DNA of 64,000 nucleotides from Minisyncoccota bacterium (GCA_041663045.1 JBAZRH010000001.1:1817-65816), one strand, 5' to 3'. Numbered from the stretch's first letter, positions 309 through 43,610 are shown. Notes: generated from the letters alone by a model not told the origin. Numbers and translations: made by a program.

Positions 309-316
309 CATTTTTA

Positions 317-360: not shown

Positions 361-388
361 ACCCATACTAATGTAATATTTACTTTAT

Positions 389-5645: not shown

Positions 5646-6338
5646 ATGAATAAATTTTATGTAATCGGAACGCCAATAGGAAATCTAGAGGACATCTCAT
5701 ACAGAGCGGTGAGGATTTTGAATGAAGTCGATTTAGTGCTTTGTGAAGATACTAGAGTGACAATAAATCTTTTGAATAAATACAGTATAAATAAGCCGAC
5801 AATGAGTTATCATTCTCAAAGTAAGCTCTCAAAGGTGGATAAGATTTTGGAAATGATAGCTGAGGGCAAAACACTTGCTCTTGTCTCTGATGCCGGAACA
5901 CCGACCATTTCTGACCCTGGCTCAATGCTTATTTCAAAGATTCGCGCAGCGTTTTCCGAAATAGAAATAATTGCTATACCAGGTCCCTCGGCGCTTGTAT
6001 CCGCACTTTCGATTTCCGGTCTTCCTGCTTCTGAATTTGCTTTTCTTGGATTTCTGCCACATAAAAAAGGTAGAGAAACTCTTTTTAAAGAAATAGCCTC
6101 TGCAGAGAGGACCGTCGTCTTTTATGAATCTCCCCATAGGATTCTGAAAGCACTTGAATCGCTTAAAGATCACTTGGCTCTGCCAGAGCCAAGTAGTAGG
6201 AAGATTGTCGTCGCTCGGGAGCTTACAAAAGTTTTTGAACAAATCGTATCAGGCACAGCCGAAGAAATTCTTAAATATTTTGCCGATAATCCCGACAAAG
6301 TGAGGGGAGAATTTGTAGTAATGGTTTCAGCTAAATAA
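5646..6338 (+). CDS. rsmI: 16S rRNA 2'-O-methyltransferase RsmI (tetrapyrrole methylase fold)
   Basis: YVIGTPIGNLEDISYRAVRILNEVDLVLCEDTR matches the RsmI N-terminal signature. Confidence 0.8.
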   Translation: MNKFYVIGTPIGNLEDISYRAVRILNEVDLVLCEDTRVTINLLNKYSINKPTMSYHSQSKLSKVDKILEMIAEGKTLALVSDAGTPTISDPGSMLISKIRAAFSEIEIIAIPGPSALVSALSISGLPASEFAFLGFLPHKKGRETLFKEIASAERTVVFYESPHRILKALESLKDHLALPEPSSRKIVVARELTKVFEQIVSGTAEEILKYFADNPDKVRGEFVVMVSAK

Positions 6339-6390
6339 CAGGGTTGATTTTTGCCAGGATCCCGAGAAAATCAACCCTGTTATTATTTTG
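6337..6390 (+). terminator. rho-independent terminator
   Basis: aacagggttgattt...aaatcaaccctgtt (14-bp stem) followed by attattttg. Confidence 0.65.
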
Positions 6391-12355: not shown

Positions 12356-12382
12356 GATATGTAATATCTATTTTAGCACAAA

Positions 12383-13992: not shown

Positions 13993-14955
13993 ATGATTCT
14001 TGTTAAGAAGATTATTTTGGTATATAATGAAAAAATGATTAAGAATAACCCTAAAATTTTAATAACTGGTGGTCTTGGCTTTATATTTTCGCATGTTACT
14101 GAGTACTTTGTCAATAAAGACTGGAACGTTGTTGTGATTGACAATGAGTCAGACGGTTCGCATCCAGAAATAATAAATGGGACATTTAAGTATTATAAAA
14201 TGGATGTCTCTGATCATAACATCATAAATATTATTTTAAAAGAAAGTCCCGAGTATGTTTTACATGCTGCAGCGATATCAGATGTAGATTTCTCTATTAA
14301 AAACTCTTTTAAAACCATGAGCAGTAATATATTGGGTAATTTACATGTGTTTGAAGCTAGTAAAAAACTCCCCAATTTAGTTAGGTTGTTGTATGTGTCT
14401 ACCGATGAGATATATGGAGAGTGTGGGCATAAAAAGAAAGAAACAGAAATAATCTTTCCGAAGAATCCGTATTCTTGTTCAAAGGCAGTTGGATCATTGT
14501 TAAGGATCGCCTATGACAACTCTTTTAAAGAACTTTTTGATAAAACCTCTGAAACCAGGTTTTGTAACGTTTTTGGGCCAAGACAGGATAAAAGAAAAAT
14601 ATTACCAGCAATAAAGGAAAGTTTAGATGGAAAATATTCTATACCATTGCATGATGGAGGGACAGGGTACAGAGAATATATTTATGTAAAAAATATACCA
14701 CCTGTAATTGATTTGATACTGAATTCAGATAAGGGAAACAGAGTATTCAATGTGACATTGAATAATGGTTATACCGTGCAAGAGTTGATAGAAAAAGCCG
14801 AGGAAATTACTGGTAAGAAATGCTTAACCCATCCAAGTCATAGGGAAGGCATGGACTTAAAATATCAAATGAATGCGACGAGGTTGAAGAGATTAGGTTG
14901 GAAACCACTTTATACATTTAAGCAAGGTTTAAAGGAATATTTATTAGATAAGTAA
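13993..14955 (+). CDS. NAD-dependent sugar epimerase/dehydratase (extended SDR)
   Basis: ILITGGLGFIFSH Rossmann motif, YVSTDEIYGE, YxxxK region. The true start may be the ATG at 14035. Confidence 0.75.
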   Translation: MILVKKIILVYNEKMIKNNPKILITGGLGFIFSHVTEYFVNKDWNVVVIDNESDGSHPEIINGTFKYYKMDVSDHNIINIILKESPEYVLHAAAISDVDFSIKNSFKTMSSNILGNLHVFEASKKLPNLVRLLYVSTDEIYGECGHKKKETEIIFPKNPYSCSKAVGSLLRIAYDNSFKELFDKTSETRFCNVFGPRQDKRKILPAIKESLDGKYSIPLHDGGTGYREYIYVKNIPPVIDLILNSDKGNRVFNVTLNNGYTVQELIEKAEEITGKKCLTHPSHREGMDLKYQMNATRLKRLGWKPLYTFKQGLKEYLLDK

Positions 14956-14968
14956 TAAATCATTAATT

Positions 14969-15991
14969 ATGAAAAAAGTAAAACTTTTTAAGCCGTTTGT
15001 TTCATGGAGAGCTATTGTAAACGTGGTGCGTGTTTTGCTCTCTGATCAGCTAGCGGAGGGTCCACAAGTAAAGAGATTCGAAAAGGAATTTTCCGAAAAA
15101 TTCGGACTTAAGAATGTTGTAGCTGTTAACTCCGGTACTACAGCGTTAGAGCTTGCTTACGAATTAGCTAAGATTGAGAAAGGGGACGAAGTAATTACAA
15201 CAGTATTTACATGCACAGCAACCAATATACCTCTCATTCGTCGCGGAGCGAAAATTGTCTTTGCTGATATAGACAAAGATTTAAACATTAATATTGAAGA
15301 CGTGAAAAATAAAGTTACTCCGAATACCAAAGCTATCGTATTTGTTCATTTCGGCGGGAACAATAGGGGACTTAAAGAATTAATAGAATTTTGTCGGGCT
15401 CGCTCAATAAAGTTAATCGAAGATGCAGCTCAAGCCGTTGGGAGTGATTTTTGGGGTAAAGCAGATTTCGCTTGTGTTTCTCTGCAGGCGATTAAAACAC
15501 TTTCTAGTGGTGATGGAGGGTTTCTTATTTGTAAGAGTGATGAAGATTATAAAAAAGCTCGCAGACTTAGATGGTTTGGTTATGATAGAGACGAGAAACA
15601 GAAAAAAGGTGATATAGATCTTACTGAAGCGGGATATAAATATCATATGAATGATATCACAGCAGCAATCGGTCTTGGGAACCTATCTGTTATTGATAAA
15701 GTTATTAATCACAGAAAAAAGCTTATGAATATTTATTCAGAAGCTGGGCTGAACAGTCATATCTGGATGACTGCTGTGCTTGGTCGTGATTACGCTTCTT
15801 TATCAAAGAGGCTTAAGGAACACGGTTTTGAGACGGGTCAACATCATTATCGTAATGATAAGTATACTCTTTTCGGAGGCAGACAAAAACTTCCAGTTAT
15901 GGATTCTATAGAAGATAATTATTTTTTTATTCCTATGCACCACGCTGTTTCAGTTAAGCAAGCGAAAAAGATAGTTTCTTTACTTCAATAA
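14969..15991 (+). CDS. DegT/DnrJ/EryC1/StrS-family PLP-dependent sugar aminotransferase
   Basis: VNSGTTALELA, GDEVITTVFTCTAT and lysine-region context typical of the family. Confidence 0.7.
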   Translation: MKKVKLFKPFVSWRAIVNVVRVLLSDQLAEGPQVKRFEKEFSEKFGLKNVVAVNSGTTALELAYELAKIEKGDEVITTVFTCTATNIPLIRRGAKIVFADIDKDLNINIEDVKNKVTPNTKAIVFVHFGGNNRGLKELIEFCRARSIKLIEDAAQAVGSDFWGKADFACVSLQAIKTLSSGDGGFLICKSDEDYKKARRLRWFGYDRDEKQKKGDIDLTEAGYKYHMNDITAAIGLGNLSVIDKVINHRKKLMNIYSEAGLNSHIWMTAVLGRDYASLSKRLKEHGFETGQHHYRNDKYTLFGGRQKLPVMDSIEDNYFFIPMHHAVSVKQAKKIVSLLQ

Positions 15992-16017
15992 TCTCTTAAT
16001 TATATATTATCTAAAAG

Positions 16018-17715
16018 ATGAAGACGGAAATCGAAAAAGAATATGGGGAACAAGAATATGTTCGCCATACAGCGCCATACAAAGCATATCTTCAAGCATT
16101 AGAAGCGGTATTTGATTGGACGATCGTCGATAGTTTTATAGACCTTGGTTGTAATAATGGCTGTTTGATCGAAGTTTTGCATAGAAAGTATCCACATATC
16201 GATATTTTAGGATTAGATTATTTTGAATGGGCGAAAAAGCACGCAGACGAATCCATTCGCGAAAATATTAAAAAGGCCGATTTGGGCTTACCATACAGTT
16301 TTGGAAAACAATATAGTATTGTTAATTGTTCAGAAGTTGGTGAGCACCTTCCGCCGAAGGTGGAGGACGTATTGATAGAAAATATAACCAAAGCGTCTAA
16401 AGATATAATTATATTGACATGGTCTAATGTTAAGATCAACTCTACCAGTAATAATCAACATGTTAATCCGCATTCCAGAAAATATGTAATATCGAAGCTT
16501 AAGCTTAAAGGATTTGGATATTGGGAGGAAGCTACAGATAAGATTATAAATATTTTAAGATTATCACTCGATGGAATTGGACATATGTGGTGGGCAGACA
16601 ATATTATGGTATTTAAGAAGATTGTCTTTTTCCCTATTAAGTCGCGATACTTTATTCAGGGTATTAATACAAATAATGAATCCCATAAGAAAGACTTGTC
16701 ACCAAACAGATTCTCTTCTTATGGAAGTAAGACATTGCAATTCGAATTAAAAGAGCTTACCGACAAGATCAGATATTGTGTTGCAAATAGAATAAAACTT
16801 AGTATTTTACGTGCAAGTGATGGTGATTATTTTTTCTTAAAAAAAATACCTATAGGAAGTGCTAGTCCTGGAAGAAGGGCGCTTACTATTGCTTATGAAG
16901 ATATAAATATAGACTTGTTTAGGTCTTCATTTTGGCATAATGATGTCATTACCTTTAATCTTGGACCAGGAACGATTACCTCATGGAGGAGTTTTATAAT
17001 GACAGAGTTACCCGTAAAGATTCTTGGTAAGATTTTTAAGAGGGGATTTCATTTATTAAATAATAAGAAGATAAGATACGGTTTAAATCTAATATCAAGA
17101 TATCTTACTTTTCTTAATATTCTACCTATAATCTCTGTCTGGCTGTATTCTTTCAAGAGGGGTTATGACTATTTTAGAAAAGCCTTCAGGCTTACCCTAG
17201 GCGATACTCCATCCTGCGAATCTGTCTATGCTCTCGTCACGACGAAATGGCTTTTTAATAATTTCAAAGATGAAATAGGTATAATTGCTGGTGACGAGAA
17301 ATTGGAGCTTATAAAAGAACTAGCTAGTAGAAAAGCGTATTGCGAATATATAGGAATAGAATCCTTTTGTGATTATATTCCTGTCCCGCAAAAAGGCGCG
17401 GCTAATAATGTAGAGGCATTGGCTAAGTCGATGTCTGAAAAGGTTAGTAAGAGTAAAGCAAAGATATTTTTAGTCGGAGCGGGAAGTAGTAAAGTCGCTC
17501 TTATCCCTCTTTTACAGACTTATAGTGATGCCGTCTTTATAGATGTCGGAGCCGGCATAGATGCTTTAGCCGGAATTGTGTGCCAAGATCGTCCTTATTT
17601 TGCAGATTGGATAAATTACCGCATAAAAGACAGAGATTATTCAAAGATCGATTTTATGGATAAGGGCAATCCAGCATGGAATAATCCTGTTTACAAAGTG
17701 GTGACCATATCTTGA
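16018..17715 (+). CDS. two-domain protein: N-terminal SAM-methyltransferase-like domain plus unknown C-terminal Rossmann-like domain
   Basis: FIDLGCNNGCLIEVL (motif I-like) at the N-terminus. C-terminal IFLVGAGSSK..DVGAG. Length 565 aa. Confidence 0.45.
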   Translation: MKTEIEKEYGEQEYVRHTAPYKAYLQALEAVFDWTIVDSFIDLGCNNGCLIEVLHRKYPHIDILGLDYFEWAKKHADESIRENIKKADLGLPYSFGKQYSIVNCSEVGEHLPPKVEDVLIENITKASKDIIILTWSNVKINSTSNNQHVNPHSRKYVISKLKLKGFGYWEEATDKIINILRLSLDGIGHMWWADNIMVFKKIVFFPIKSRYFIQGINTNNESHKKDLSPNRFSSYGSKTLQFELKELTDKIRYCVANRIKLSILRASDGDYFFLKKIPIGSASPGRRALTIAYEDINIDLFRSSFWHNDVITFNLGPGTITSWRSFIMTELPVKILGKIFKRGFHLLNNKKIRYGLNLISRYLTFLNILPIISVWLYSFKRGYDYFRKAFRLTLGDTPSCESVYALVTTKWLFNNFKDEIGIIAGDEKLELIKELASRKAYCEYIGIESFCDYIPVPQKGAANNVEALAKSMSEKVSKSKAKIFLVGAGSSKVALIPLLQTYSDAVFIDVGAGIDALAGIVCQDRPYFADWINYRIKDRDYSKIDFMDKGNPAWNNPVYKVVTIS

Positions 17716-17734
17716 TTTTATTGATAGATCTTTT

Positions 17735-18658
17735 TTAGTTTATTTTCTTTAGTATACAGATATGTAAATCTCCAACGAACCACCCCTTCTCAATTAAGAA
17801 ATCATCCATCTTTTGAACCACGTCTTTTATTATTCTTGGCGACTTACTCCAACTGTTTTGCAATCCCGGTAATGCAGCAAAGTTTCTGAAGTATAATATC
17901 TCTAAATCTTTTCTGTCATACAACTCTTTATAATCGTCTGCAGAAGATATAGATTCAAACGGGGAGGTATTGTGAGAATGAGCAACTGATTCTGCGAATT
18001 TCATACTGAATAAAATACATGGAATTCTATAGAATAGTATTTTTAATAATTCTTTGATATTTAATTTAAATATTGCATGAGGTAGTCTGTTTAGGATTGA
18101 ATATAGGAAGGCGTTTGTTTTTAATTGTATAGCTTGATGAACCCAGGTGTCATTGATTATAATAACCCCCTTTTCTTTTAGTAGATTATCAATACAGTAT
18201 CTTAAGGTATTAAGCGGATCTACCAAGTGGTGTAAGGTGCCTTGAGTGATTATACAATCAAATTTTTGATAGAATTTGATTCTGTCTATTTTATTCAAAT
18301 CTCCCCGTAATACTATGCTTTTATGGTTGTATCTTTTCTCTAAATTATCATTTAATGATATATCTATTGAGGTTATGTCTTTTACTCCACTTAGATTTAT
18401 AATTTCATTGGTTAACCAGCCATCAGCGCTTCCTAATTCCAAAACACTTATATTATTTCCACATTTCCTAATATATTCCAACATGAGTTCAGTCGTGCCT
18501 CTTCTATAAGTTTGGTAAGGGGCCGACTCTTTTCTCTCTTTAAAACCGCTTCCATCTTCTGAACCTTTATACCTACTCCAGATTTCTATCTCTTTTTTAA
18601 GTAAGTCATCATACTCCTTGGAGTTTACCGTCATCTTGTCTTTATTATATCTTTCCAT
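17735..18658 (-). CDS. class I SAM-dependent methyltransferase
   Basis: VLELGSADGWLT motif I, DCIITQGTLHHL, GVIIINDT. Confidence 0.65.
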   Translation of the reverse strand: MERYNKDKMTVNSKEYDDLLKKEIEIWSRYKGSEDGSGFKERKESAPYQTYRRGTTELMLEYIRKCGNNISVLELGSADGWLTNEIINLSGVKDITSIDISLNDNLEKRYNHKSIVLRGDLNKIDRIKFYQKFDCIITQGTLHHLVDPLNTLRYCIDNLLKEKGVIIINDTWVHQAIQLKTNAFLYSILNRLPHAIFKLNIKELLKILFYRIPCILFSMKFAESVAHSHNTSPFESISSADDYKELYDRKDLEILYFRNFAALPGLQNSWSKSPRIIKDVVQKMDDFLIEKGWFVGDLHICILKKIN

Positions 18659-19541
18659 ATTTTCTATTACTTAAAAATCCAGATTCTATTTTAATCCAAT
18701 CTACAGGAGTAATATCTGCTTCCTTGTGTTTATTATGCCAAACCTTCGGACAGACAACAGTCTTCCCTTGATTTTGATTAAGCCAAGCACCCCACCAACT
18801 AAATGAACTATTGGCAATAATGTTATTTCTGCTTTTCGACATTAATAACAAATCTATAAATGGTTTATTAATATTTGAATGAATCACAGTATATTTAAGG
18901 TCTTTTGGTAGTATTTTTTTTGCATAGTCTTCATCTTCACAAAATACAAAAAAGTTTGGACTCATTATTTTTTCTTTGATTATAGACACCGCTTTCGAGT
19001 AGTATTCACCATTACAGATATCTCTGACTTCAGGTATTTTTAAATAATCACCAGCTCTTACGTGAATTGAAACAGACTCCCCTAGAGACATCTTTTGCTC
19101 AATGGATAGGGAATAGTCATCAAGCGTTTCTTTTGGCTGGAATTCCTTTAAAAGTATATCTCTGATATCATCAAAATAATTGAGGTTTTGCCAGTAGCCG
19201 TCAAAATATAAACTTCTATTGATCTCGAAGACATTTTTCTCAAAAGCGAAAGATTTTACCTCTTGGATATAGTTATTAGAAAACCTCCAAACACCTTTAA
19301 AAATAGAAGCTATTTTCTTCAGTAATATATTTCTGGGAAATAGCGTATTAATGATCTCATCTTTTGTAGCAGTATCTATATTAGTCAGATAATTTATTAT
19401 CTCCAATTTTCTGTGATTTTGTTTATCGAAAAAACTTATATCAAACTTTAATTTTCGTCCAGTTTTAATGGAGACACTTTTACCGAAAGCATATTGGAAC
19501 ATTTGATTTCCCAAACCTCCAGAAAGTCTAACAATAATCAT
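18645..19541 (-). CDS. glycosyltransferase family 11 (alpha-1,2-fucosyltransferase-like), second copy
   Basis: SGGLGNQMFQYAFG signature. Paralogous to 10738-11595 (shared SSFSWWGAWLNQN). Confidence 0.75.
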   Translation of the reverse strand: MIIVRLSGGLGNQMFQYAFGKSVSIKTGRKLKFDISFFDKQNHRKLEIINYLTNIDTATKDEIINTLFPRNILLKKIASIFKGVWRFSNNYIQEVKSFAFEKNVFEINRSLYFDGYWQNLNYFDDIRDILLKEFQPKETLDDYSLSIEQKMSLGESVSIHVRAGDYLKIPEVRDICNGEYYSKAVSIIKEKIMSPNFFVFCEDEDYAKKILPKDLKYTVIHSNINKPFIDLLLMSKSRNNIIANSSFSWWGAWLNQNQGKTVVCPKVWHNKHKEADITPVDWIKIESGFLSNRKYGKI

Positions 19542-20421
19542 CTTTATATTTTCTTATCTGTTCTACCCAGTAATCCATCCGTAGCGCAGGACAGGCTGTC
19601 TTAGAAGATAGTTCAACGAAGATTTGTTCGAATTCCTTTTCTGTCACATCTTTTAATTTATCCCATTTTTCAATCACCATAAGCGGTATTCCGATACTTT
19701 TCCAATATTCAGTTGGTATAGAGGCTTCAACTATCGGTATAGATTTAAGATATATGGTTTCCCATGTTCTATGACAATCGAGCCCATTTCCTGGGGGTGA
19801 TATGATGAATTTATATTTTGATATCTTTTTTAAATAGTCTTCTTTTGAAATAGTCTCTTTTTCGATTTCTGATAAGGTATCAGCAAGATTTATTTTTTTT
19901 ACTTCCTCTAATATAGGTATTCTTTTTTTAAAGTTTGTCCTAACCCAGAAACTGTAAAACAGTCTGGTGATTTTGTTTTTTTCATCAGAATATTTTTTAA
20001 TAGAATTTATAATTATGTTTTTCTTATCGCCAATACGGCTATCGATTCCTATTGGTATCGGAGTTATCTTTTTGTGCTCAAACAATAAGTTTTCTGCAAA
20101 CCAGTGTATTACCTTGTTATCATCTGCCAGTGATTTCATCTCTTCACTTACACCCATATCTTCATTGTGGGAGATAAGTATGTACGGATTATCAATCAGG
20201 GGATTAATCTTTGATGAAAATTCTTTTAGGAAGTTTGTCCTTACAAAAATAATGTCACCCCTGCTTACATCTTTAGGGTCAAAGTCCATCGATTCATCGA
20301 AAATATGTTGCGCTAGATTACGAAAAGAATCTCCGGATATATATGGATAACTGGTTGGTCTTTGTGTTTTTAACGCTTTGTTTAAATATCTCCTTACTTT
20401 TGTTTTTAATTCTAATAGCAT
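19528..20421 (-). CDS. hypothetical protein in glycan locus (possible glycosyltransferase)
   Basis: Intact 297-aa ORF overlapping the neighbouring genes on both sides. Confidence 0.4.
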   Translation of the reverse strand: MLLELKTKVRRYLNKALKTQRPTSYPYISGDSFRNLAQHIFDESMDFDPKDVSRGDIIFVRTNFLKEFSSKINPLIDNPYILISHNEDMGVSEEMKSLADDNKVIHWFAENLLFEHKKITPIPIGIDSRIGDKKNIIINSIKKYSDEKNKITRLFYSFWVRTNFKKRIPILEEVKKINLADTLSEIEKETISKEDYLKKISKYKFIISPPGNGLDCHRTWETIYLKSIPIVEASIPTEYWKSIGIPLMVIEKWDKLKDVTEKEFEQIFVELSSKTACPALRMDYWVEQIRKYKDDYC

Positions 20422-21692
20422 AAGATTTTTTTAATTTTAGAAGTCGTAAAGATAAAAGCAAAAGGGATTGAATATGATATAAAAGTAGCGAATGCTGCTC
20501 CTGCCATACCATATTTTGGTATGAGGAATATATTTAGTATGACATTTATTGACATACCAAGAAAGGATGAGAAAAATAGAGTCTTTTTGTAATTTTCTGC
20601 CACAAGATAATAGTTGGCAAGCATATTTAAAGATGTGGAAATATTACTCCAAATATATATTTGAAGTATCAATACTGCTCCGATAAATGCCGGACCGAAG
20701 ATTATCTTTATTATTAATTCAGCTAGTAGTGTAGTCGGTATGGCAATTATTATAGAAAGAATTAATAATATCAGACCCAGCTTTTTAATTCTCCTATAAT
20801 AAATTTCTTCAGATATTTTCTTGGCATTTATAATCGCCGGAAACATCGAAGAGACTATTATATTTGGCACGAGATACCAGACTTCAGATAGTCTAACTGC
20901 GGCATCATATAGACCGACGGATTTTGCATCCATCATATTTTTTATCATAATCTGGTCAATTCTAGAATATATTAAAGCAAAGGCAGATGAAAAGATGAGT
21001 GGCCAAGAATCATGAAGTATTTTCTTTGCCACTTCTTTACTAAAGGACCACTCTGAAATCATTTTATAGAGTTTTGTTCGATAGTATAGAAGCCCGACAG
21101 CATAAAAGATTGATTCTAAAAGTAGAACAAATGCCAGATATATAACTCCTTTTCCAAAGACCAAAACTAATATCTTTAATATGTTCAGAATTATTGTTAC
21201 ATATAAAGATAGGAGTGAAGGATATTTTGATTGAACGTTTGCTTGAAATTCATTACTAATTATATTAAAAGAATTGAAAATGAAACTAATACTTAGTAAA
21301 AATATTAGAAATAAGGAGACATCTTTAGGAGAAAACCACAGAGCAAATGTCGAGCAGAGGATTATAGCTAGGATAGATGCTCCCAACCTAAGCCCCAAAG
21401 CTGAACCCATGTATAAATTCCTTTTTTCTGGATATTGAATTAAATCTCTGTATAGTACCTGATCGATTCCAAGGACGGCGATAAAAGAGAATATGGACAC
21501 AAAACTAACTGCATAGCTTAACTCTCCATAGTTTGTTGGACCCAAATGTCTTGCGATATAGATAGTGGCTAAAAGGGAGACAGCCATACTTCCTATTTTT
21601 GCTAGAAACATCCAGCTCATATTTTTGAAATATTTCTGAAATCCAACGTGTTTCCATTTCTCTACTATGTAATTCCAAGAAAGAGTCTGCAT
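20412..21692 (-). CDS. polysaccharide biosynthesis protein, Wzx-like flippase (MOP superfamily)
   Basis: ~12 predicted TM helices. N-terminal FLAKIGSMAVSLLATIYIARHLGPTNYGELS typical of Wzx/RfbX. Confidence 0.65.
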   Translation of the reverse strand: MQTLSWNYIVEKWKHVGFQKYFKNMSWMFLAKIGSMAVSLLATIYIARHLGPTNYGELSYAVSFVSIFSFIAVLGIDQVLYRDLIQYPEKRNLYMGSALGLRLGASILAIILCSTFALWFSPKDVSLFLIFLLSISFIFNSFNIISNEFQANVQSKYPSLLSLYVTIILNILKILVLVFGKGVIYLAFVLLLESIFYAVGLLYYRTKLYKMISEWSFSKEVAKKILHDSWPLIFSSAFALIYSRIDQIMIKNMMDAKSVGLYDAAVRLSEVWYLVPNIIVSSMFPAIINAKKISEEIYYRRIKKLGLILLILSIIIAIPTTLLAELIIKIIFGPAFIGAVLILQIYIWSNISTSLNMLANYYLVAENYKKTLFFSSFLGMSINVILNIFLIPKYGMAGAAFATFISYSIPFAFIFTTSKIKKILCY

Positions 21693-21887: not shown

Positions 21888-24023
21888 ATGACAAATACGA
21901 ATATAAATAATATTGTTAAGTATGCGATTTTCACGGGCCTCTGGGCTGTGCTTTTGATACCATTTTATGTGGCGAATACAATGTTTTTTCCTTATATCGT
22001 TGGAAAAAACTTTGCTTTCAGAATAATCATTGAAATAATTTTCGCTCTCTGGGTATATCTTGCCTTTATTGACGTGAAATACAGACCGAAATGTTCAATA
22101 GTTTTGAGGACGACAATAATCTTTACAGCGATAATGTTTCTAGCAGATATTCTTGCCGTCGCGCCGGTAAAAGCTTTCTGGAGCAACTTTGAGAGAATGG
22201 ACGGATGGATTACTTTGATACATTTACTTATGTATCTATTAGTCTTTGGTTCTGTAATGAAAACAGAAAAGCTTTGGTTGTGGTTCTTCAGATCGTCTTT
22301 GGCTATGAGTGTTGTTATGATTTTGTTTGTTACAAAAGAATGGCTTTCAACTGGAGCAACTAGAGTCTCCGTAACTCTCGGCAATCCAATCTATGTTGCT
22401 ATTTTATTTCTCTTCAATTTTTTCTTTGCACTGATTCTGCTTTATAAAGACGTAATCATTTTAAAGACAAATAGTTTAAGACCATGGTTAGAGATTTTTA
22501 AATCCTGGCTGACATATGTATATCTTATAATTGCATTTCTCTGTGTTTTCGGTATCTGGAGAACAAGCACTAGGGGTGTAATACTCGGTCTCCTTGGGGG
22601 ACTCTTTGTTTCGGCTTTGATGATTGCGATCTTTGAGAAAAAAGACAAAATAATGAGGAAAGTTGCAATCGGAGGGGTTGTTGCCATTGTCGTCATTATT
22701 GTTGGATTCTTTGCTATTAAGAATACTGAATTTGTTAAAAATAATGCAACACTAAGTAGGCTTGCAGCGATTTCTTGGCAAAATGTAAACGGGCAAGGAC
22801 AAGCAAGACAATATGTCTGGCCAATGGCATTCCAGGGTGTAAAAGAAAAGCCCATTTTAGGTTGGGGACAAGACGGGTTTAATTATGTTTTTAACAAATA
22901 TTATGATCCTAGAATGTATGCCCAAGAACAATGGTTTGATAGGGCTCATAATATGCCGATTGACATACTCGTGGCTGGTGGAATACTTGGTCTTATCTCT
23001 TATCTCAGCATTTTTGTCGCAGCACTTTGGTTGATTTGGAAGAGGAGAGAAAGGCTTGGTATTACAGACGCAGCACTTCTGGTCGGAGTCTTGGCTGGGT
23101 ATTTTTTTCAAAATCTTTTCGTCTTTGATAATTTAATTAGTTATATCTTGTTTTTTGTAGTACTAGCGTATTTACATTCAAGTGATACAGAAAATGATAC
23201 AGAGAAAGATAATGGAAAAAACTACCATATTAATCAGGAATTAATAAACTATATTGTTGCTCCTTTGTTGGTGGTCATCCTCGGTGTTTCATTTTGGTAT
23301 CTAAATTATAAACCGATTTCTGCAAACTTAAATTTGATACGAGCATTACAACCTTTAGAAGGAGGGCTTTCTGTAAATCTAGATCTTTTTAAGAAAATCT
23401 TGTCCTCCGAATCAGTCGGTACACCTGAGATCAGAGAGCAACTCCTAAGTGTCGTTCCGAGAATTGTCTCCATAAACGTGGATCAGAAGATTAAGCAAGA
23501 TTTTGTTGAATTAGCATACAATGAAATACAAAAACAAGTGGCCGAAACTCCAAACGATGCAAGGTATCAATTCTTTGCAGGACAGTTTTTGGCGAATCTA
23601 GGACAGTATCAAGAATCTTTACAATATTTTCAAAAAGCAGTTGAACTTTCACCCACAAAGCTAACCATGTTATCTGATTTATCCAAGACATTGGCTTACG
23701 TTGGAGATAAAAAGCAAGCGCTAGAAGTAGCAAAGAGGGCTTATGATCTGATGCCAGAATATGTTGATGTGAAAATAGGTTATATTTTTGCTCTTATAAT
23801 AAATGGGGATGAAAAGGCGGCAAAAGATTTGTTGGGTGCTACAACCACAACAGATGAGAGGATAGTCAGGGCATATCTTATAAATGCCTCGGATTACCTA
23901 AGAAAAGGAGATAAATGGAGTGCTGTGGCGGAAGTAGAGAAGGCGATTAAGATATCCCCCAATTTTGAAGCACAGGGAAGGGGTGTGATAGATGGCATTT
24001 GGAAAGGGGAGATCAAGGAATAA
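21888..24023 (+). CDS. O-antigen ligase (Wzy_C)-like membrane protein with C-terminal TPR repeats
   Basis: Multi-TM N-terminal part with WFDRAHNMPIDILVAGGILGL (Wzy_C motif). TPR-like repeats after residue ~520. Confidence 0.65.
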   Translation: MTNTNINNIVKYAIFTGLWAVLLIPFYVANTMFFPYIVGKNFAFRIIIEIIFALWVYLAFIDVKYRPKCSIVLRTTIIFTAIMFLADILAVAPVKAFWSNFERMDGWITLIHLLMYLLVFGSVMKTEKLWLWFFRSSLAMSVVMILFVTKEWLSTGATRVSVTLGNPIYVAILFLFNFFFALILLYKDVIILKTNSLRPWLEIFKSWLTYVYLIIAFLCVFGIWRTSTRGVILGLLGGLFVSALMIAIFEKKDKIMRKVAIGGVVAIVVIIVGFFAIKNTEFVKNNATLSRLAAISWQNVNGQGQARQYVWPMAFQGVKEKPILGWGQDGFNYVFNKYYDPRMYAQEQWFDRAHNMPIDILVAGGILGLISYLSIFVAALWLIWKRRERLGITDAALLVGVLAGYFFQNLFVFDNLISYILFFVVLAYLHSSDTENDTEKDNGKNYHINQELINYIVAPLLVVILGVSFWYLNYKPISANLNLIRALQPLEGGLSVNLDLFKKILSSESVGTPEIREQLLSVVPRIVSINVDQKIKQDFVELAYNEIQKQVAETPNDARYQFFAGQFLANLGQYQESLQYFQKAVELSPTKLTMLSDLSKTLAYVGDKKQALEVAKRAYDLMPEYVDVKIGYIFALIINGDEKAAKDLLGATTTTDERIVRAYLINASDYLRKGDKWSAVAEVEKAIKISPNFEAQGRGVIDGIWKGEIKE

Positions 24024-24044
24024 AGTATAGGAGAAAGATTTTTA

Positions 24045-24086
24045 AAAAGCGGAACGGTGGCTATTTCTAGCCGTAGTTCCGCTTTT
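24045..24086 (+). terminator. rho-independent terminator
   Basis: aaaagcggaac...gttccgctttt (11-bp stem) with a T-run. Confidence 0.65.
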
Positions 24087-24220
24087 CCTTTTAAATTTGC
24101 TTTATTTCTTATAATATGCTATACTTCCCACTGTGAGTGCTAGCATCAGCGATGGCGCTGGCTCGAACGAATGTCTGCGTATGACCCCACTTTGTGGGGT
24201 TTTACGTTGTCCCAAAAAGC

Positions 24221-24340
24221 TCGCTCGGGCGTGCCTTTATGAGGGTACGGATTTTTTGAAGCTTAAAAAATCCTGAAGTTTTCGCGCCAGTCGCGCTCAA
24301 AACCCCCTCATAAAGGCACGCCCTCGCTCACCCACGAACG
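24221..24340. repeat. imperfect palindromic intergenic element R1 (family with 32563-32705 and 41186-41332)
   Basis: Outer arms gggcgtgcctttatgaggg / ccctcataaaggcacgccc (19/19). Central mini-palindrome ggattttttgaagcttaaaaaatcc. Shares the cgcgcc[ag]tcgcgctc core with R3. Confidence 0.6.
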
Positions 24341-24481
24341 AAATCAAGCTGGAATGAAAGGTGTGAGTTTGATATAATAACAGAGGATTGTTCCCAGTCA
24401 CGACCGGCGGTTGCACTCATATAAGACATTAGTTTTGGAGTTAGCCCCCGCCGGTCTTGAGTCGGAGCAATCTTTTTCCCC

Positions 24482-25492
24482 ATGGAAATTAAAAAGTTTG
24501 TAAATCTTTCAAAATATTCTACTTTCAAGATCGGCGGAGACGCGCGGTTTTTTTGTGAAGTTTCAAATGAAGCTGAGCTTAAAGAAGCTTTGGCTTTTGC
24601 AGAAAAAGAAAATCTACGTTTTTTTATTCTAGGCAATGGTTCCAATCTTTTGATATCAGATTTAGGTTTTGATGGATTTATTATAAAAAATAATATTAAA
24701 AGTTTGAATATTGAATCGGAGAATTCCGATGAAGTGGTTATTTCCGCCGGTGCAGGGGAGGACTGGGCCGACTTTGTAAAATACTCTATAAATGAAAATC
24801 TTTCGGGCGTAGAAAATCTTTCGGGAATACCAAGTTCTGTCGGAGCTTCGGCGGTGCAGAATATTGGTGCCTACGGTGTGGAAGCAAAAGATATTATAGC
24901 TTGTGTGGAGGGTTTAGATGCAAATAACGGAGAGAGCTTTTTATTGAAAAATAGAGAATGCAATTTTAACTATCGCGATAGTATTTTTAAGAAAAACAAG
25001 AATTTGATAATTACAAAAGTCTATTTCAATCTAGGAAGAAAGTTTATGCCGAAAATAGAATATCCGGATTTAAAAAAGGTTTTTGAAGGAGAGAAAAAAC
25101 TTACACCCAAAATGATTGGCGAAGCTATAATCAAAATCCGCAAAGAAAAACTTCCAGATTTGGAAAAATACGGCACAGCCGGCTCGTATTTCAAAAATCC
25201 AGTAATTACTGAAGAAAAATATTTAGAAATTGCAAAAAAATATCCGGAATTACCCAAATTTCCATCAGGAGAAGGCTTTGCAAAAATTCCACTTGGATAT
25301 GTGCTCGATAAAATCTGCGGTCTCAAAGGTTTTCGACAAGGCAACGCCGGATTTTATGAAAAACAGGCTCTGATTCTTGTGAATTTTGATGGAGCAAAGA
25401 GCATCGATATTATTGCTCTTGAAAATCTTGCAAAAAAGATGGTAAAAGCAAAACTCGGTATTGATATAGAAGCAGAGGTGGAGAAAATCTAA
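24482..25492 (+). CDS. murB: UDP-N-acetylenolpyruvoylglucosamine reductase
   Basis: LSKYSTFKIGGDARFF and GNGSNLLISD FAD-binding motifs. Length 336 aa. Confidence 0.8.
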   Translation: MEIKKFVNLSKYSTFKIGGDARFFCEVSNEAELKEALAFAEKENLRFFILGNGSNLLISDLGFDGFIIKNNIKSLNIESENSDEVVISAGAGEDWADFVKYSINENLSGVENLSGIPSSVGASAVQNIGAYGVEAKDIIACVEGLDANNGESFLLKNRECNFNYRDSIFKKNKNLIITKVYFNLGRKFMPKIEYPDLKKVFEGEKKLTPKMIGEAIIKIRKEKLPDLEKYGTAGSYFKNPVITEEKYLEIAKKYPELPKFPSGEGFAKIPLGYVLDKICGLKGFRQGNAGFYEKQALILVNFDGAKSIDIIALENLAKKMVKAKLGIDIEAEVEKI

Positions 25493-25534: not shown

Positions 25535-25612
25535 GATATACAGAAGTGAGGTCAAAAAGAGCTCATAAAAACCGTGGCAAAAGCCACACTGTTCTTAGAC
25601 AAGGAGAAAATA

Positions 25613-27022
25613 ATGCAAACGAATAATGCAGTTGAGAACGTTCGATGTATGAAAATTATCTTCAATGAAGGCAAGCCAGAAATCGACGGTGCCACACTGA
25701 AGGTTCAGTGGCTTTTCGGCAAAGAAACTGCCGAAAAAGTGCCGACGCATATTTTGGCAATGGATCTTAAGCCCTATGCCATCTTAAACATCAAGTCCGA
25801 TGGTTATGCATGGGATTCATATTCACCGAGAAAGGTCTTTAAGATCGCTGACACGATGGGCTTCTGGCAATTCAACCGTCCTGGAAAACACAAGATTTTA
25901 TTTGTGGCCTTGAGGGTGGAAGATTGCCAAAAAGAAGACTTCTCTTTGAAAGTCTTGTCATGCTCGGACGGCGGAAATTATGGTAACCCGCTGTTTGTGG
26001 ATGAGAAGAATGGCGAAATCGCAATTCGGCGAGTTCAAGAAAATCTCCCGGCAACAGTGATTTGTTGCCTTAATATGGAGATAGATATTCCAGAAGTGTT
26101 TTTTGCCAAGAAGCCGACATCGGCTATCGGTAAAGCTTTTTGGAATTATTCTGTTCCTCGTGAACGTGGTGGTGATCCAGATGATGAATGCGAATATAGG
26201 GGTTATTGGTTTAAGCGTCTTATACCCAAACTCGTATTCCATGTACCGACACGCATACTGATTGGGCTTTTCATCACAAGTCTTCTCACCTTGGTAAGGT
26301 TTAGTGCTTTCTTTTTTGGCTGGCGCCCATGTCTTTTGAGTGGACTCGGAGAACTCTGGAACTTCAATAGCAGAATCCTTGGCATAAAATTTGGTAAGGA
26401 TGACTTCAGGATTTTATTTCTGGAGGAGTGCGACCATGACAGACCTAGATGCAAGAGGTATATGGATTTACTTGAACGATACCGTGTCTGGAGTGTGAAG
26501 GAAAATCCAAAAGACGAAAGTGAAGTGGTCCTTGTAAAGATGCCTTTTGCCCCATGGCATTTGGCCGTCTTTGGTCTTATCGTGTGGGCATTTTGGGGTA
26601 GTAGCGATAAGATCGGGATTACAAATCTGTTGAAGATCAGTGTCTTTTGGAGTTCTCTGCTTGTTGGGTGGATACTGTTGATGGTTTTCTTTGCCCGTTT
26701 GGTCCCAGCACTTCTCGGCAAAGAGAGCAAGATCTATCCAAAATTATCCGAAAGGATGAAAGGGTATTGGTCTCGTCGGCGAGCTGAAAGGCAGAAAGCC
26801 CGCGCAGAAGCAGGACAAAAGCGGAAGGAAGCTGAAGCTATTGTTTCCATGAACAGGCATAAGCAGTATGCGTTGTGGTTGAAGAATAATCTATTGGTAG
26901 GTAAAACCTCGCCAGTGGGGAATTCTACATCAACGCCGTTCTCGAATAAGGGTGTTGTGAAGTTGAAAGCAAGCTTCTGGGCACTCAAGGCTCGTGTTTG
27001 CAAGCCGTATCCGAAGGGGTAA
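25613..27022 (+). CDS. hypothetical membrane protein on a moderately high-GC island
   Basis: AAGGAG RBS before the ATG at 25613 (the ORF track starts at a GTG at 25574). Soluble N-terminal half, ~5 TM segments, basic/coiled C-terminal tail. GC above the flanks. Confidence 0.55.
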   Translation: MQTNNAVENVRCMKIIFNEGKPEIDGATLKVQWLFGKETAEKVPTHILAMDLKPYAILNIKSDGYAWDSYSPRKVFKIADTMGFWQFNRPGKHKILFVALRVEDCQKEDFSLKVLSCSDGGNYGNPLFVDEKNGEIAIRRVQENLPATVICCLNMEIDIPEVFFAKKPTSAIGKAFWNYSVPRERGGDPDDECEYRGYWFKRLIPKLVFHVPTRILIGLFITSLLTLVRFSAFFFGWRPCLLSGLGELWNFNSRILGIKFGKDDFRILFLEECDHDRPRCKRYMDLLERYRVWSVKENPKDESEVVLVKMPFAPWHLAVFGLIVWAFWGSSDKIGITNLLKISVFWSSLLVGWILLMVFFARLVPALLGKESKIYPKLSERMKGYWSRRRAERQKARAEAGQKRKEAEAIVSMNRHKQYALWLKNNLLVGKTSPVGNSTSTPFSNKGVVKLKASFWALKARVCKPYPKG

Positions 27023-31587: not shown

Positions 31588-32562
31588 ATGGCATTTGTAG
31601 ACGAATTAAAACTTCATATTAAAGCAGGTCATGGGGGAGATGGCGTGGTGCGTTGGCGACATGAAAAGGGTCGCGAATTTGCTGGTGCTTCCGGTGGCAA
31701 TGGTGGAAAGGGCGGAGATATCTATATTAGAGCTGTCCGTGATATTGGCATACTTGCAAGATATAAAAACTCAAAAGAATTTTTGGCGCAAAACGGTGCT
31801 TCTGGGCAAAGAGATAGTATGCACGGCAGAGATGGCGATGATCTTACTATAAACTTACCGATTGGCTCTGTAATTACAAACTTGGAAACAAGAGAGAAAT
31901 TTAATCTTGATACTGATGAGCAGATTATAAAAATTTTGAATGGTGGAAAGGGCGGGCTTGGCAATGAATATTTCAAATCTTCCACAAATGTTTCTCCAGA
32001 ACAGCAGACGGATGGCAAAAGGGGAGAAGAAGCGGATTTTGAAATAGAAGTAGAGCTTGTTGCAGACGCTGGCTTTATCGGCCTTCCAAATGCAGGGAAA
32101 TCAAGCTTACTCAATGAGCTTACAAATGCACATTCCAAAGTCGGAGCGTATCAATTTACAACACTTGAACCGGCACTTGGCGCAATGCGTGGTTTTGTGC
32201 TTGCCGATATTCCTGGGCTTATAGAGGGTGCTTCAGAGGGTAGGGGTTTGGGTCATAAATTTCTTAGACATATAAAAAGGACAAAGATTTTGCTTCACTG
32301 CCTTTCGCTTGAAGATGAAGTTCTGGTGAAGAATTATAAAGTTATAAGAAAGGAGCTCAAAGATTATAGTGAGGAGCTTGCGGAGAAGAAAGAGATTGTG
32401 ATTTTGACAAAGACTGATTTGGTAGATGCCAAAAAGCTTTCTGCAGCAAAAAAGAAAATAGAAAAATTAAATAAAAATATTTTGACCGTTACCGTTTACG
32501 ATAATGATTCTATAAAAGAGTTGGGGGATAAATTGATTAAGATTCTTAGGGCAGAGAAATAG
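31588..32562 (+). CDS. obg: GTPase Obg (short form, no C-terminal extension)
   Basis: Gly-rich Obg fold (GGDGVVRW.., GGNGGKGGDIY) and GTPase G1 GLPNAGKSS. Length 324 aa. Confidence 0.85.
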   Translation: MAFVDELKLHIKAGHGGDGVVRWRHEKGREFAGASGGNGGKGGDIYIRAVRDIGILARYKNSKEFLAQNGASGQRDSMHGRDGDDLTINLPIGSVITNLETREKFNLDTDEQIIKILNGGKGGLGNEYFKSSTNVSPEQQTDGKRGEEADFEIEVELVADAGFIGLPNAGKSSLLNELTNAHSKVGAYQFTTLEPALGAMRGFVLADIPGLIEGASEGRGLGHKFLRHIKRTKILLHCLSLEDEVLVKNYKVIRKELKDYSEELAEKKEIVILTKTDLVDAKKLSAAKKKIEKLNKNILTVTVYDNDSIKELGDKLIKILRAEK

Positions 32563-32705
32563 GGCGGTTTTGCACGGGGTCCTGGTACCTTATACTTTTT
32601 GAAAACCGCGCATAAAATCCTGCTGGCTTTTTGCTATGCTCGGCTCGCCAGCCTGTGCAATGATTTTCAAAAAGCATAAGGTGCCACCCCTAACACAAAA
32701 CCGCT
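32563..32705. repeat. imperfect palindromic intergenic element R2 (same family as R1 and R3)
   Basis: Outer arms ggcggttttg / caaaaccgc. Inner arms ggtaccttatactttttgaaaa / ttttcaaaaagcataaggtgcc. Shares cacggggtcctg and gccacccctaaca with R3. Confidence 0.6.
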
Positions 32706-38348: not shown

Positions 38349-38357
38349 CTTAAGCAT

Positions 38358-38396
38358 AAAAGAAGAGCGGCGCCCGGAGGGCGCCGCTCTTCTTTT
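38358..38396 (+). terminator. rho-independent terminator
   Basis: aaaagaagagcggcgccc...gggcgccgctcttctttt. Confidence 0.8.
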
Positions 38397-38451
38397 ATGT
38401 CTTTAATATGATAAAATTAATAGATGGGAGGCATTTGTCGCCTTTTGATTT

Positions 38452-41181: not shown

Positions 41182-41185
41182 TATT

Positions 41186-41332
41186 GCCTGAAATTTTCAC
41201 GGGGTCCTGTCGACCTGCCCCTTTTGAAATGCACGGATATTTTCTTGCTAGAAAATTCCTCGTGCTCGCGCCGTCGCGCTCCCAAGGCATTTCAAAAGGG
41301 GCAGGCTCGCCACCCCTAACAAAATTTCAGGC
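41186..41332. repeat. imperfect palindromic intergenic element R3 (same family as R1 and R2)
   Basis: Outer arms gcctgaaatttt / aaaatttcaggc. Inner arms cctgccccttttgaaatgc / gcatttcaaaaggggcagg. Core gtgctcgcgccgtcgcgctccc. Confidence 0.6.
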
Positions 41333-41334
41333 AG

Positions 41335-43427: not shown

Positions 43428-43610
43428 GCAAGTCTACGACCGAGTATCACCACTTTTCTGTGTCCGCAGGCGAGTTTGCCGGTACGGTGTGGTGTAATTT
43501 TGCGGAGTGTATTCACGGAGCAAAAGTATACCACGACGGAAACCGCCGAGGATTAGGAGAATTTCCGCTGGGAAATTCTCCGCACAGAAAAATGGTGATG
43601 CGAGGGAGTC
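43428..43610 (+). mobile_element. MITE-like element copy A (~180 bp with ~19-bp terminal inverted repeats)
   Basis: Ends gagtatcaccacttttctgtg ... cacagaaaaatggtgatgcg are inverted repeats. Aligns near-identically over ~150 bp with the reverse complement of 51402-51597. Confidence 0.6.

What the first reader, a model, noticed from the sequence alone, without database searches (positions are those of the whole stretch)
24100..24480. Family of ~140-bp imperfect palindromic intergenic elements (24221-24340, 32563-32705, 41186-41332) inside an unusually long, structured murB upstream region
Three intergenic elements share the same architecture: long complementary outer arms, an AT-rich central mini-palindrome and shared sequence blocks. 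The blocks are cacggggtcctg and gccacccctaaca (R2, R3) and cgcgcc[ag]tcgcgctc (R1, R3). Each sits between unrelated genes: O-antigen ligase/murB, obg/phosphatase, prfA/rpsB. This resembles REP/BIME- or MITE-like structured repeats, not gene-specific leaders. The murB upstream region (460 bp, long for this compact genome) also holds further hairpins (gaccccactttgtggggtttt; gaccggcgg…ccgccggtc). The whole region could be an unannotated structured RNA.
Basis: seen in the sequence. Interest (0 to 1): 0.55.

Follow-up and report, generated by a model that had tools for sequence, protein, structure and literature searches.

The report
Nested palindromic intergenic repeats in Paceibacterota
The three elements are real copies of an undescribed family of nested-hairpin, MITE/REPIN-like repeat DNA that comes and goes between genes in a small clade of candidate-phyla-radiation bacteria. 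The copy upstream of murB is an insertion sitting between two conserved small-RNA-like modules, not part of a murB leader.

Summary
R1 (24220-24329), R2 (32563-32705) and R3 (41185-41333) belong to one family. A covariance model built only from copies in other genomes finds exactly these three in the window (E 8e-12, 3e-29, 1e-41). I found about 15 copies in at least 6 assemblies of Candidatus Paceibacterota. None turned up in Rfam, viral contigs, phages or plasmids.

The architecture is a long stem closing a three-way junction with two small hairpins. Loops and junctions are conserved; the stems differ completely between copies yet stay paired (95.5% of cells paired, 40 of 50 pairs with double changes). 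Pairing is almost pure Watson-Crick, with no strand bias (G.T 13, A.C 9). Copies occur in both orientations and are present or absent among close relatives. Near-identical copies carry unrelated, perfectly complementary flanks.

I read this as DNA-level palindromic repeat DNA, non-autonomous and mobile, inserted into or extending palindromic terminators. It is not an RNA gene. No transposase was found.

R1 is a short-form copy in a hypervariable spacer between two conserved, wobble-rich RNA-like modules (24131-24208 and 24383-24477). These modules are the real "structured murB upstream region". Interest is moderate to low: a new member of a known kind.

The parts
24220..24329 (+). R1: short-form copy. 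Direct CTCGCTC at 24220-24226 and 24323-24329. 19-bp perfect arms at 24227-24245 and 24305-24323. Core hairpin 1 at 24249-24273 (GGATTTTTT..AAAAAATCC). Core hairpin 2 within 24283-24298 (CGCGCCAGTCGCGCTC).
   Evidence: (50.6 bits, E 8e-12, model positions 30-122)
32563..32705 (+). R2: long-form copy that starts right after the obg stop codon (32560-32562). Outer stem GGCGGTTTTG/CAAAACCGC. Blocks CACGGGGTCCTG (32573-32584) and GCCACCCCTAACA (32683-32695). Inner 23-bp stem at 32583-32605 and 32664-32686. Diverged core.
   Evidence: 113.6 bits, E 3e-29
41185..41333 (+). R3: long-form copy between prfA (ends 41181) and the rpsB promoter. Outer stem at 41186-41197 and 41321-41332. Blocks at 41198-41209 and 41309-41321. 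Inner 19-bp perfect stem at 41214-41232 and 41287-41305. Core with hairpins GGATATTTTC..GAAAATTCC and GCGCCGTCGCGC.
   Evidence: 158.4 bits, E 1e-41; 87% identical to the bin-744 copies
6334..6384 (-). Possible remnant or footprint: an 18-bp perfect palindrome whose 16-nt loop reads CTCGGGATCCTGGCAA on the minus strand. This is 11 of 12 matches to the CTCGGGGTCCTG block variant.
   Evidence: I16; 20.3 bits, E 0.002; the link to the family is inferred, not shown
24117..24208 (+). Module b. It is not part of the repeat family but flanks R1. It has an extended -10 TGCTATACT (24117-24125), a GCTAGC hairpin, an invariant single-stranded CTCGAACGAATGTCTGCGTAT, and a terminator hairpin (24183-24203) followed by TTTT.
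   Evidence: 7 genomes; covarying terminator stem; many G.U pairs
24370..24481 (+). Module d. It is not part of the repeat family but flanks R1. It has an extended -10 TGATATAAT (24370-24378), an 87-nt hairpin (24386-24472) with an invariant apical region, a U-run, and then the murB ATG at 24482.
   Evidence: (I8); present without murB in L012

Best explanation
R1-R3 are copies of a lineage-restricted family of non-autonomous, nested palindromic repeat DNA. It is MITE/REPIN-like and either mobile now or recently mobile.

The conserved unit is a core of about 55 nt: CACG, an A/T hairpin with a TTGCT loop, CTCGTGCTC, a G/C hairpin with a C(A)GTC loop, then CCCAAG. It is bounded by short inverted ends, CTTTTGAAA and TTTCAAAAG. 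Long forms carry a second layer, C(A/T)CGGGGTCCTG ... G(C/T)CACCCCTAACA.

Copies lie between genes, typically right after a stop codon. They sit at the centre of long, perfectly complementary flanks that are unrelated between copies.

I infer two things. First, the element inserts into the loop of the long perfect-palindrome terminators typical of these genomes, and/or its arms are homogenised and extended by hairpin template switching. Second, the covariation reflects these DNA-level processes, plus any need for a hairpin during mobilisation, not selection on an RNA.

Once in place, the element probably acts incidentally as a terminator or 3'-end hairpin for the upstream gene. The enzyme that moves it is unknown.
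For: SHOWN.
(1) Family membership. An independent covariance model finds exactly R1-R3 in the window. About 15 copies exist: in Loclat_bin-14315; MJ130729B_bin-744 (5 copies plus 1 fragment on 3 contigs); a JGI contig from a relative with 94% Obg identity; ENA scaffolds; and JGI Ga0247841.
(2) Only the elements are similar between these loci. Their surroundings are unrelated.
(3) Presence varies. L008 has a full copy after fba, where the window has a 20-nt gap. The 85% and 81% relatives have no copy in 20 kb of syntenic DNA, and their prfA-rpsB and obg-gatB gaps hold only plain terminators. At the R1 site, L008 keeps the left arm and hairpin 1 of R1 but has a different short-form copy in place of the rest. 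L015, L020, L021, L022 and L012 have other or no fillings.
(4) Orientation is mixed: 7 copies are co-directional with the flanking genes and 3 are antisense.
(5) Pairing is 95.5% of cells, with 40 of 50 pairs showing double changes, 0 of 500 shuffles as good, and slid controls at or below 0.143 against 0.514. It is almost purely Watson-Crick: 619 W-C, 13 G.T, 9 A.C, so no strand asymmetry. The neighbouring modules b and d are different, with G.U in about 10-15% of cells: my hand tally from the pair tables is 47 G.U against 4 A.C.
(6) In bin-744, copies about 95% identical inside have unrelated 11-30 bp complementary flanks. Gradual compensatory change cannot produce that.
(7) Plain terminators here are 14-22 bp perfect palindromes with GAA/GGA loops. 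A 94% relative has such a terminator, GGGGCATTTTGC-ttc-GCAAAATGCCCC, where the window has GGGCGGTTTTG-[R2]-CAAAACCGC.
(8) Nesting occurs. L004b carries an extra 85-nt hairpin insert flanked by TAA..TAA inside core hairpin 1.

FROM THE LITERATURE. REPINs show common compensatory changes in their hairpin (PMC3116915). IS elements target REP palindromes (PMC1525189). Template switching homogenises and expands inverted-repeat arms (PMC8604942, PMC13100816).
Against: No transposase, RAYT or integrase was found. 31 window ORFs were scanned, and there were no widely spaced end pairs in 256 kb of held sequence.

No clean empty-site/filled-site pair from near-identical strains was obtained, so insertion is inferred and not observed. 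No conventional target-site duplication is visible. Short forms are instead bracketed by the same direct CTCGCTC(G) at independent loci, which a simple MITE model does not explain.

Strong conservation of loop and junction sequences across genomes would also fit a functional RNA or a protein-binding site. An exact 37-mer is shared by R3, L001b and L008a.

Copy number seen per genome is low: 3 in 64 kb here. The pair counts were made on a model-fitted alignment, which leans towards pairing.
Confidence: 0.65

Rival explanations
1. The family is a functional structured RNA: a 3'-UTR terminator or stabiliser module, or a small RNA. Its helices covary because the RNA fold is selected. Its conserved loops bind a protein or another RNA.
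For: Covariation is very strong and the loops and junctions are conserved. 7 of 10 oriented copies are co-directional with the upstream gene and start right after its stop codon. Folding is very stable, with z from -7 to -10. R2 and L004b are followed by T-runs.
Against: Three copies are antisense to both neighbours. There is almost no wobble and no G.T versus A.C asymmetry, unlike the true RNA-like modules next door. Both strands fold equally well. No promoter is conserved. The element is absent from syntenic sites in close relatives, and R1 is half-replaced in L008. Unrelated perfect flanks on near-identical copies are not explained. There is no Rfam match.
Confidence: 0.2
2. The elements are structure-specific recombination sites, analogous to attC or IS200/IS605 ends. 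A hairpin-recognising recombinase or HUH enzyme encoded elsewhere in the genome uses them.
For: Structure is conserved while stem sequence is not, as with attC. The conserved unpaired bases could be recognition bases. The same direct CTCGCTC(G) brackets short forms at independent loci, like a core site. The remnant-like loop at 6334-6384 could be a footprint.
Against: There is no cassette array and no integrase or Y1/HUH gene in the sequence held. The attC core sites RYYYAAC...GTTRRRY are not present in the right order: only ...CCCTAAC at the 3' end and no GTTRRRY partner. Flanking genes are housekeeping genes in conserved synteny.
Confidence: 0.08
3. R1 is part of a murB-specific regulatory leader, and its resemblance to R2 and R3 is incidental.
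For: R1 lies inside the long murB upstream region, between two conserved modules.
Against: R1 scores E 8e-12 with a model built from foreign copies. The spacer that holds it differs in sequence and length, leaving about 55-220 nt between the modules, in all 7 genomes compared. R1 is intact only in the window.
Confidence: 0.02

Closest known systems
REPINs (REP doublets forming hairpins) mobilised by RAYT/TnpA-REP
   Same: Both are about 100-150 nt intergenic long hairpins with conserved end regions and a less conserved middle that keeps pairing through compensatory changes (PMC3116915). Both are non-coding, multi-copy and variable between strains.
   Different: There is no GTAG-type REP motif and no RAYT gene in the sequence held. 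Here the loops and junctions are conserved and the stems vary, the reverse of REPINs, where the ends are conserved. The architecture is a three-way junction with nested layers. Copy number seen is far lower. The host is a CPR lineage.
Bacterial MITEs with stable folds (Correia/NEMIS, ERIC, RUP, Bacillus bcr1); comparison from my own knowledge
   Same: Both are 100-160 bp with inverted ends, sit between genes, vary in presence between relatives, can be nested, and can act as terminators or mRNA-stability elements.
   Different: Classical MITEs have sequence-conserved terminal inverted repeats, a direct target-site duplication and a related autonomous IS. Here the flanks are inverted complements rather than direct duplications, and no parent IS is known.
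IS elements that insert into REP or palindrome loops (IS1397, ISKpn1, ISPpu9/10)
   Same: Both involve insertion at the centre of a pre-existing extragenic palindrome, which leaves the element flanked by complementary host arms (PMC1525189).
   Different: Those are protein-coding IS elements with known transposases. Here the inserted unit is a 55-125 nt non-coding hairpin, and insertion is inferred rather than observed.
Quasipalindrome template-switch homogenisation and expansion of inverted repeats
   Same: It explains perfectly complementary arms that differ between copies, double 'compensatory' changes arising in one event, and arm growth (PMC7202029, PMC8604942, PMC13100816).
   Different: It is a mutational process and not an element family. 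On its own it does not explain the spread of the conserved core to unrelated loci and genomes.
Integron attC sites
   Same: Both are imperfect palindromes of 60-140 bp that are conserved in structure and not in sequence.
   Different: The R''/R' core sites, the cassette array and the integrase are all absent. The elements sit between syntenic housekeeping genes.

Membership tests
Any Rfam 15 RNA family | Match to a curated covariance model at or near its gathering score | tested here: not met
   At the gathering threshold, the whole window gives only 3 tRNAs. E-value scans of 24000-24500, 41150-41370, 51395-51595 and L012 1400-1780 give only far-sub-threshold hairpin (miRNA-type) hits.
REP/BIME and REPIN | Conserved REP unit (20-40 nt imperfect palindrome, 5' GTAG-type motif) present as inverted doublets | tested here: not met
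   Conserved sequence lies in loops and junctions and in the CACGGGGTCCTG/GCCACCCCTAACA blocks. There is no GTAG-type REP unit, and the stems are not sequence-conserved.
REP/BIME and REPIN | Cognate RAYT (Y1 HUH transposase) gene in the genome, usually flanked by REPs | tested here: inconclusive
   None appeared among the 31 window ORFs scanned against Pfam. About 10 window ORFs (11582-21692) and the rest of the 428-kb contig were not available or not scanned.
REP/BIME and REPIN | Hairpin kept by compensatory changes; intergenic; multi-copy | tested here: met
   40 of 50 pairs show double changes and 95.5% of cells are paired. All copies are intergenic. There are up to 5 copies plus a fragment in the held parts of one MAG.
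MITE | Terminal inverted repeats conserved in sequence among copies | tested here: met
   CTTTTGAAA/TTTCAAAAG bounds the core in nearly all copies. The GGGGT/ACCCC-containing blocks bound the long forms.
MITE | Direct target-site duplication that differs from site to site | tested here: not met
   Flanks are inverted complements. The only direct repeats are the same CTCGCTC(G) at several loci, and TAA..TAA around the nested insert of L004b.
MITE | Related autonomous IS with the same ends | tested here: inconclusive
   No widely spaced end pairs were found in 256 kb held. No hits were found in viral contigs, plasmids or phages. Whole genomes could not be scanned.
MITE | Insertion polymorphism between related genomes | tested here: met
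   A copy is present after fba in L008 but not in the window. Copies are absent in the 85% and 81% relatives. The R1 site is variable.
Integron attC | R'' (RYYYAAC) ... R' (GTTRRRY) core sites, a cassette array and intI | tested here: not met
   Only CCCTAAC is present, at the 3' end, with no GTTRRRY partner in the right order. Neighbours are syntenic housekeeping genes.
Cis-regulatory leader of murB | Conserved upstream of murB in orthologous loci | tested here: not met
   This applies to R1. The spacer between modules b and d varies in all 7 genomes. Modules b and d themselves are conserved.

The most novel reading that the evidence does not exclude
These may be a new class of self-propagating hairpin DNA in ultra-small CPR genomes. 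On this reading it specifically targets, or builds, the long perfect-palindrome terminators of its host. A hairpin-recognising enzyme unrelated to known transposases would mobilise it, reading the conserved loop and junction bases (TTGCT, C(A)GTC, CACG, CCCAAG, CTCGCTCG). Family B (51413-51573 and 43446-43599) and a third palindrome family in relatives would be sister lineages. Separately, modules b and d around R1 may be a new sRNA/leader pair that controls murB.
Probability: 0.15. Interest if true: 0.6.

Novelty: new member of a known kind. Interest (0 to 1): 0.36.

Why it matters
CPR/Patescibacteria genomes are usually described as streamlined and poor in repeats. A dynamic family of nested palindromic elements, at least two families in this window alone, shows that selfish or structural repeat DNA does shape their intergenic space. 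It probably also explains why assemblies of relatives break at these spots.

The case carries a methodological warning. Spectacular "covariation" (40 of 50 pairs) can arise at the DNA level, through insertion into palindromes or template switching. The lack of G.U pairs and of strand asymmetry is what separates it from a true structured RNA. The contrast with the neighbouring wobble-rich modules b and d makes this concrete.

If the mobilising enzyme were found, it could be a new hairpin-specific DNA enzyme.

Tried and rejected
- **Known RNA families.** I ran Rfam at the gathering threshold on the whole window and four E-value scans. There was no family match.
- **attC-like reading.** I rejected it on motif order and genomic context.
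- **Exact-block scans.** The first JGI metagenome scan found nothing. A relaxed second scan gave 2 true hits and 1 chance hit. The genome scan gave 5 true hits and 1 chance hit, the latter in a high-GC Thermoanaerobaculia contig, L006.
- **Viral contigs, plasmids and phages.** No matches.
- **Transposase or RAYT.** None turned up among 31 window ORFs, the 102-aa ORF next to the L013 copy has no Pfam hit, and no distant end pairs were found.
- **Clean empty site.** Relatives were too diverged, or their loci were rearranged. Examples are a DGR-like cassette after obg in L008 and different gene content after fba. I have only suggestive evidence: the L009 terminator at the R2 position.
- **Extending the window.** An exact-protein look-up of DnaE failed.
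- **Strand test for RNA.** G.T versus A.C counts showed no asymmetry.
- **b:d duplex energy.** It is only marginal against shuffles, p about 0.05.
- **Literature.** Searches for CPR MITEs or palindromic repeats found nothing specific.

Full report
**Observation**

I read the three regions directly.
- R1 has 19-bp perfect arms at 24227-24245 and 24305-24323.
- R3 has 19-bp perfect arms at 41214-41232 and 41287-41305.
- R2 has 23-bp arms, 91% complementary, at 32583-32605 and 32664-32686.
- The 12-mer CACGGGGTCCTG and the 13-mer GCCACCCCTAACA occur exactly, and only, in R2 and R3. Their spacing is 98 versus 99 nt.
- R1 and R3 share the central domain.

Each element folds into a long stem closing a three-way junction with two small hairpins. 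The z-scores are -7 to -10, and both strands fold equally well.

**Is it a family?**

A scan of one genome per GTDB species for the two blocks gave five true copies. One is in Loclat_bin-14315 and four are in MJ130729B_bin-744. One further hit was a chance match in a high-GC contig. A covariance model then found further copies:
- A copy with an 85-nt nested insert and a 30-bp outer stem (L004 2638-2873).
- Short forms that lack the block layer (L001 2643-2740, L008 3732-3830, and L013 1919-2044, which is the same as L014).
- A full copy in a relative with 94% Obg identity (L008 18342-18492).
- A core-only fragment (L004 666-718).

A relaxed JGI metagenome scan added two more copies, L016 and L017.

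The decisive control was a second model built only from eight non-window copies. I searched it over the whole window with filters off. It finds R3 (158 bits, E 1e-41), R2 (114 bits, E 3e-29) and R1 (51 bits, E 8e-12, model positions 30-122). Everything else it hits is a plain hairpin. R1 is a short form.

The organism is a Candidatus Paceibacterota (CPR) MAG on a 428,695-bp contig.

**What is known does not match**

Rfam gives nothing. Viral contigs, plasmids and phages give nothing. Literature searches found no description of such elements in CPR bacteria.

**Anatomy**

- The core of about 55 nt is conserved. R3, L001b and L008a share an exact 37-mer.
- Its layout is CACG, an A/T hairpin with a TTGCT loop, CTCGTGCTC, a G/C hairpin with a C(A)GTC loop, and CCCAAG.
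- CTTTTGAAA and TTTCAAAAG bound the core.
- Outside that boundary comes a stem that differs completely between copies.
- Long forms then have the C(A/T)CGGGGTCCTG / G(C/T)CACCCCTAACA layer, followed by another variable stem.

On a 14-copy alignment, 95.5% of cells pair and 40 of 50 pairs show changes on both sides. No shuffle out of 500 reaches this. Sliding the partners drops the covariation score from 0.514 to 0.143 or less. The alignment is model-fitted, which favours pairing, but the margin is large.

**RNA or DNA?**

Several results point to DNA-level palindromy.
1. Pairs are almost purely Watson-Crick: 619 W-C, 13 G.T and 9 A.C. There is very little wobble and no strand asymmetry. The two conserved modules next to R1 look different. 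G.U makes up about 10-15% of their cells: my hand tally from the pair tables is 47 G.U against 4 A.C. That is the expected signature of a transcribed RNA.
2. Copies occur in both orientations relative to their neighbours: 7 co-directional and 3 antisense.
3. In bin-744, copies about 95% identical inside carry unrelated flanks of 11-30 bp that are nevertheless complementary. Stepwise compensatory evolution cannot do that. Either the flanks were already palindromes, or the arms were extended by copying.
4. Plain terminators in this genome are 14-22 bp perfect palindromes with GAA/GGA loops. There are 11 in the window against about 0.3 in shuffles. At the R2 position, a 94% relative has GGGGCATTTTGC-ttc-GCAAAATGCCCC, where the window has GGGCGGTTTTG-[R2]-CAAAACCGC.
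5. A hairpin at 6334-6384 carries CTCGGGATCCTGGCAA in its loop, which looks like a remnant of the block layer.

The literature supports both routes. IS elements insert into REP palindromes (PMC1525189). Template switching homogenises and expands inverted-repeat arms (PMC8604942, PMC13100816, PMC7202029). REPINs also show frequent compensatory changes (PMC3116915).

**Mobility**

- Only the elements, and not their surroundings, are similar between loci.
- L008 has a full copy after fba, where the window has a 20-nt gap.
- Relatives with 85% and 81% Obg identity have none in 20 kb of conserved synteny. Their prfA-rpsB gaps are 102 and 50 nt. Their obg-gatB gaps are 73 nt and 2 nt, and where a gap exists it holds an ordinary palindromic terminator.
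- At the R1 site, L008 keeps R1's left arm and first hairpin, but a different short-form copy replaces the rest.
- L015, L020, L021, L022 and L012 hold other palindromes or only short AT-rich DNA at that site.

I did not obtain a clean empty/filled pair from near-identical strains. No transposase was found. Mobility is therefore a strong inference and not an observation.

Some features are unexplained. The same direct CTCGCTC(G) brackets short forms at independent loci (R1, L013, the nested insert of L004b, and the left side of L008a). The two hairpins appear in swapped order in L013.

**The murB upstream region**

It is a mosaic.
- The Wzy-like gene's terminator lies at 24045-24086.
- Module b has an extended -10, TGCTATACT, at 24117-24125. 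It also has a GCTAGC hairpin, an invariant single-stranded stretch CTCGAACGAATGTCTGCGTAT, and a terminator at 24183-24203.
- A spacer follows, which holds R1 in this genome.
- Module d has an extended -10, TGATATAAT, at 24370-24378. It also has an 87-nt hairpin at 24386-24472 with an invariant apex, followed by a U-run.
- The murB ATG is at 24482.

Modules b and d are conserved in seven genomes, down to 64-69% identity of the Wzy-like protein. Their stems covary and are rich in wobble pairs. Neither matches Rfam.

In L012, murB is absent from the locus, yet b and d remain, and d is followed by its own large terminator. In L023 all three are absent.

The invariant stretch of b is complementary to the apex of d. 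Two correlated changes support an interaction. In L012 and L022, b G->A goes with d A->U. In L022, b U->C goes with d A->G. The duplex energy is only marginal against shuffles, p about 0.05. I treat b and d as a candidate sRNA/leader pair. It was noticed, not established.

**Verdict**

- The REP/MITE-like reading is supported.
- The "one structured RNA" idea is only partly right.
- The best explanation is a new, lineage-restricted family of nested palindromic repeat DNA that rides in or builds palindromic terminators (confidence 0.65). A functional-RNA reading is the main rival (0.2).
- This is a new member of a known kind. Interest is moderate to low, raised a little by the unusual flank behaviour, the CPR host and the neighbouring conserved RNA modules.

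Noticed in passing
window 51413-51573 (+) and 43446-43599 (-): A second nested-palindrome family (B), about 160 nt. The two cores are 89% identical, with conserved ends TTTTTCTGTG/CACAGAAAAA. The complementary flanks differ (ATACCAGTA/TACTGGTAT versus ATCACCA/TGGTGAT), and there are internal compensatory changes. Each copy lies just after the stop codon of a co-directional gene (gyrB; a 223-aa gene). There is no Rfam match and no copies in the other loci held. Its first hairpin and the following CCTCGGC resemble family A.
   Followed up: partly
window 24117-24208 (module b) and 24370-24481 (module d): Two conserved small-RNA-like units, each with an extended -10, present in 7 genomes. Their stems are wobble-rich and covary. 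The invariant single strand of b is complementary to the apex of d, with two correlated changes in L012 and L022. Module d persists without murB in L012. They are a candidate sRNA/murB-leader pair and are not in Rfam.
   Followed up: partly
L015 about 176-292 and L020 about 5440-5565: A third palindromic insertion family in relatives, with arms CCCGTTAAAAGTCT/AGACTTTTAATGGG. One copy lies in the b-d spacer and one lies between module d and murB.
   Followed up: no
window 315-361, 3210-3240, 38355-38399, 52215-52261, 59763-59804, 63884-63931: Gene-end terminators are unusually long perfect or near-perfect palindromes, 14-23 bp, mostly with GAA/GGA trinucleotide loops. The window has 11 perfect palindromes of at least 11 bp, against about 0.3 in shuffles.
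   Followed up: partly
L008 11345-14675; L009 3089-3260: In a 94% relative, a cassette with bAvd, GIY-YIG and RVT_1 genes (DGR-like) sits between obg and gatB. A duplicated obg 3' end is left behind as a remnant. The window has a His_Phos_1 phosphatase gene at that position instead.
   Followed up: no
L008 18505-18545; L013 2065-2105 (same as L014 2590-2630): Another shared repeat, CTCTGTCATTCC..GGAATCCAGGAATC, directly follows family A copies at two different loci in relatives. It is absent from the window.
   Followed up: no
L004 560-800: A core-only fragment of family A lies between a tRNA 3' end (minus strand of this locus view) and a partial direct duplicate of that tRNA end (TTTGTGACTCTACGCGGA). 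This looks like the scar of an integration at a tRNA gene.
   Followed up: no
L007 start (window 24422); L019 end; L008 end; L009 end: Short-read contigs of this and related genomes often break inside or right next to these hairpin-rich intergenic regions. This suggests the repeats and hairpins fragment assemblies.
   Followed up: no
window 46481-48853: The PheT (phenylalanyl-tRNA synthetase beta) ORF carries an NlpC/P60 Pfam hit at residues 351-420 (E 2.8e-17). That is an unexpected domain inside this protein.
   Followed up: no
window 25574-27022: A 482-aa ORF with no Pfam hit lies between murB and secA. It is absent or replaced by small ORFs at that position in relatives.
   Followed up: no
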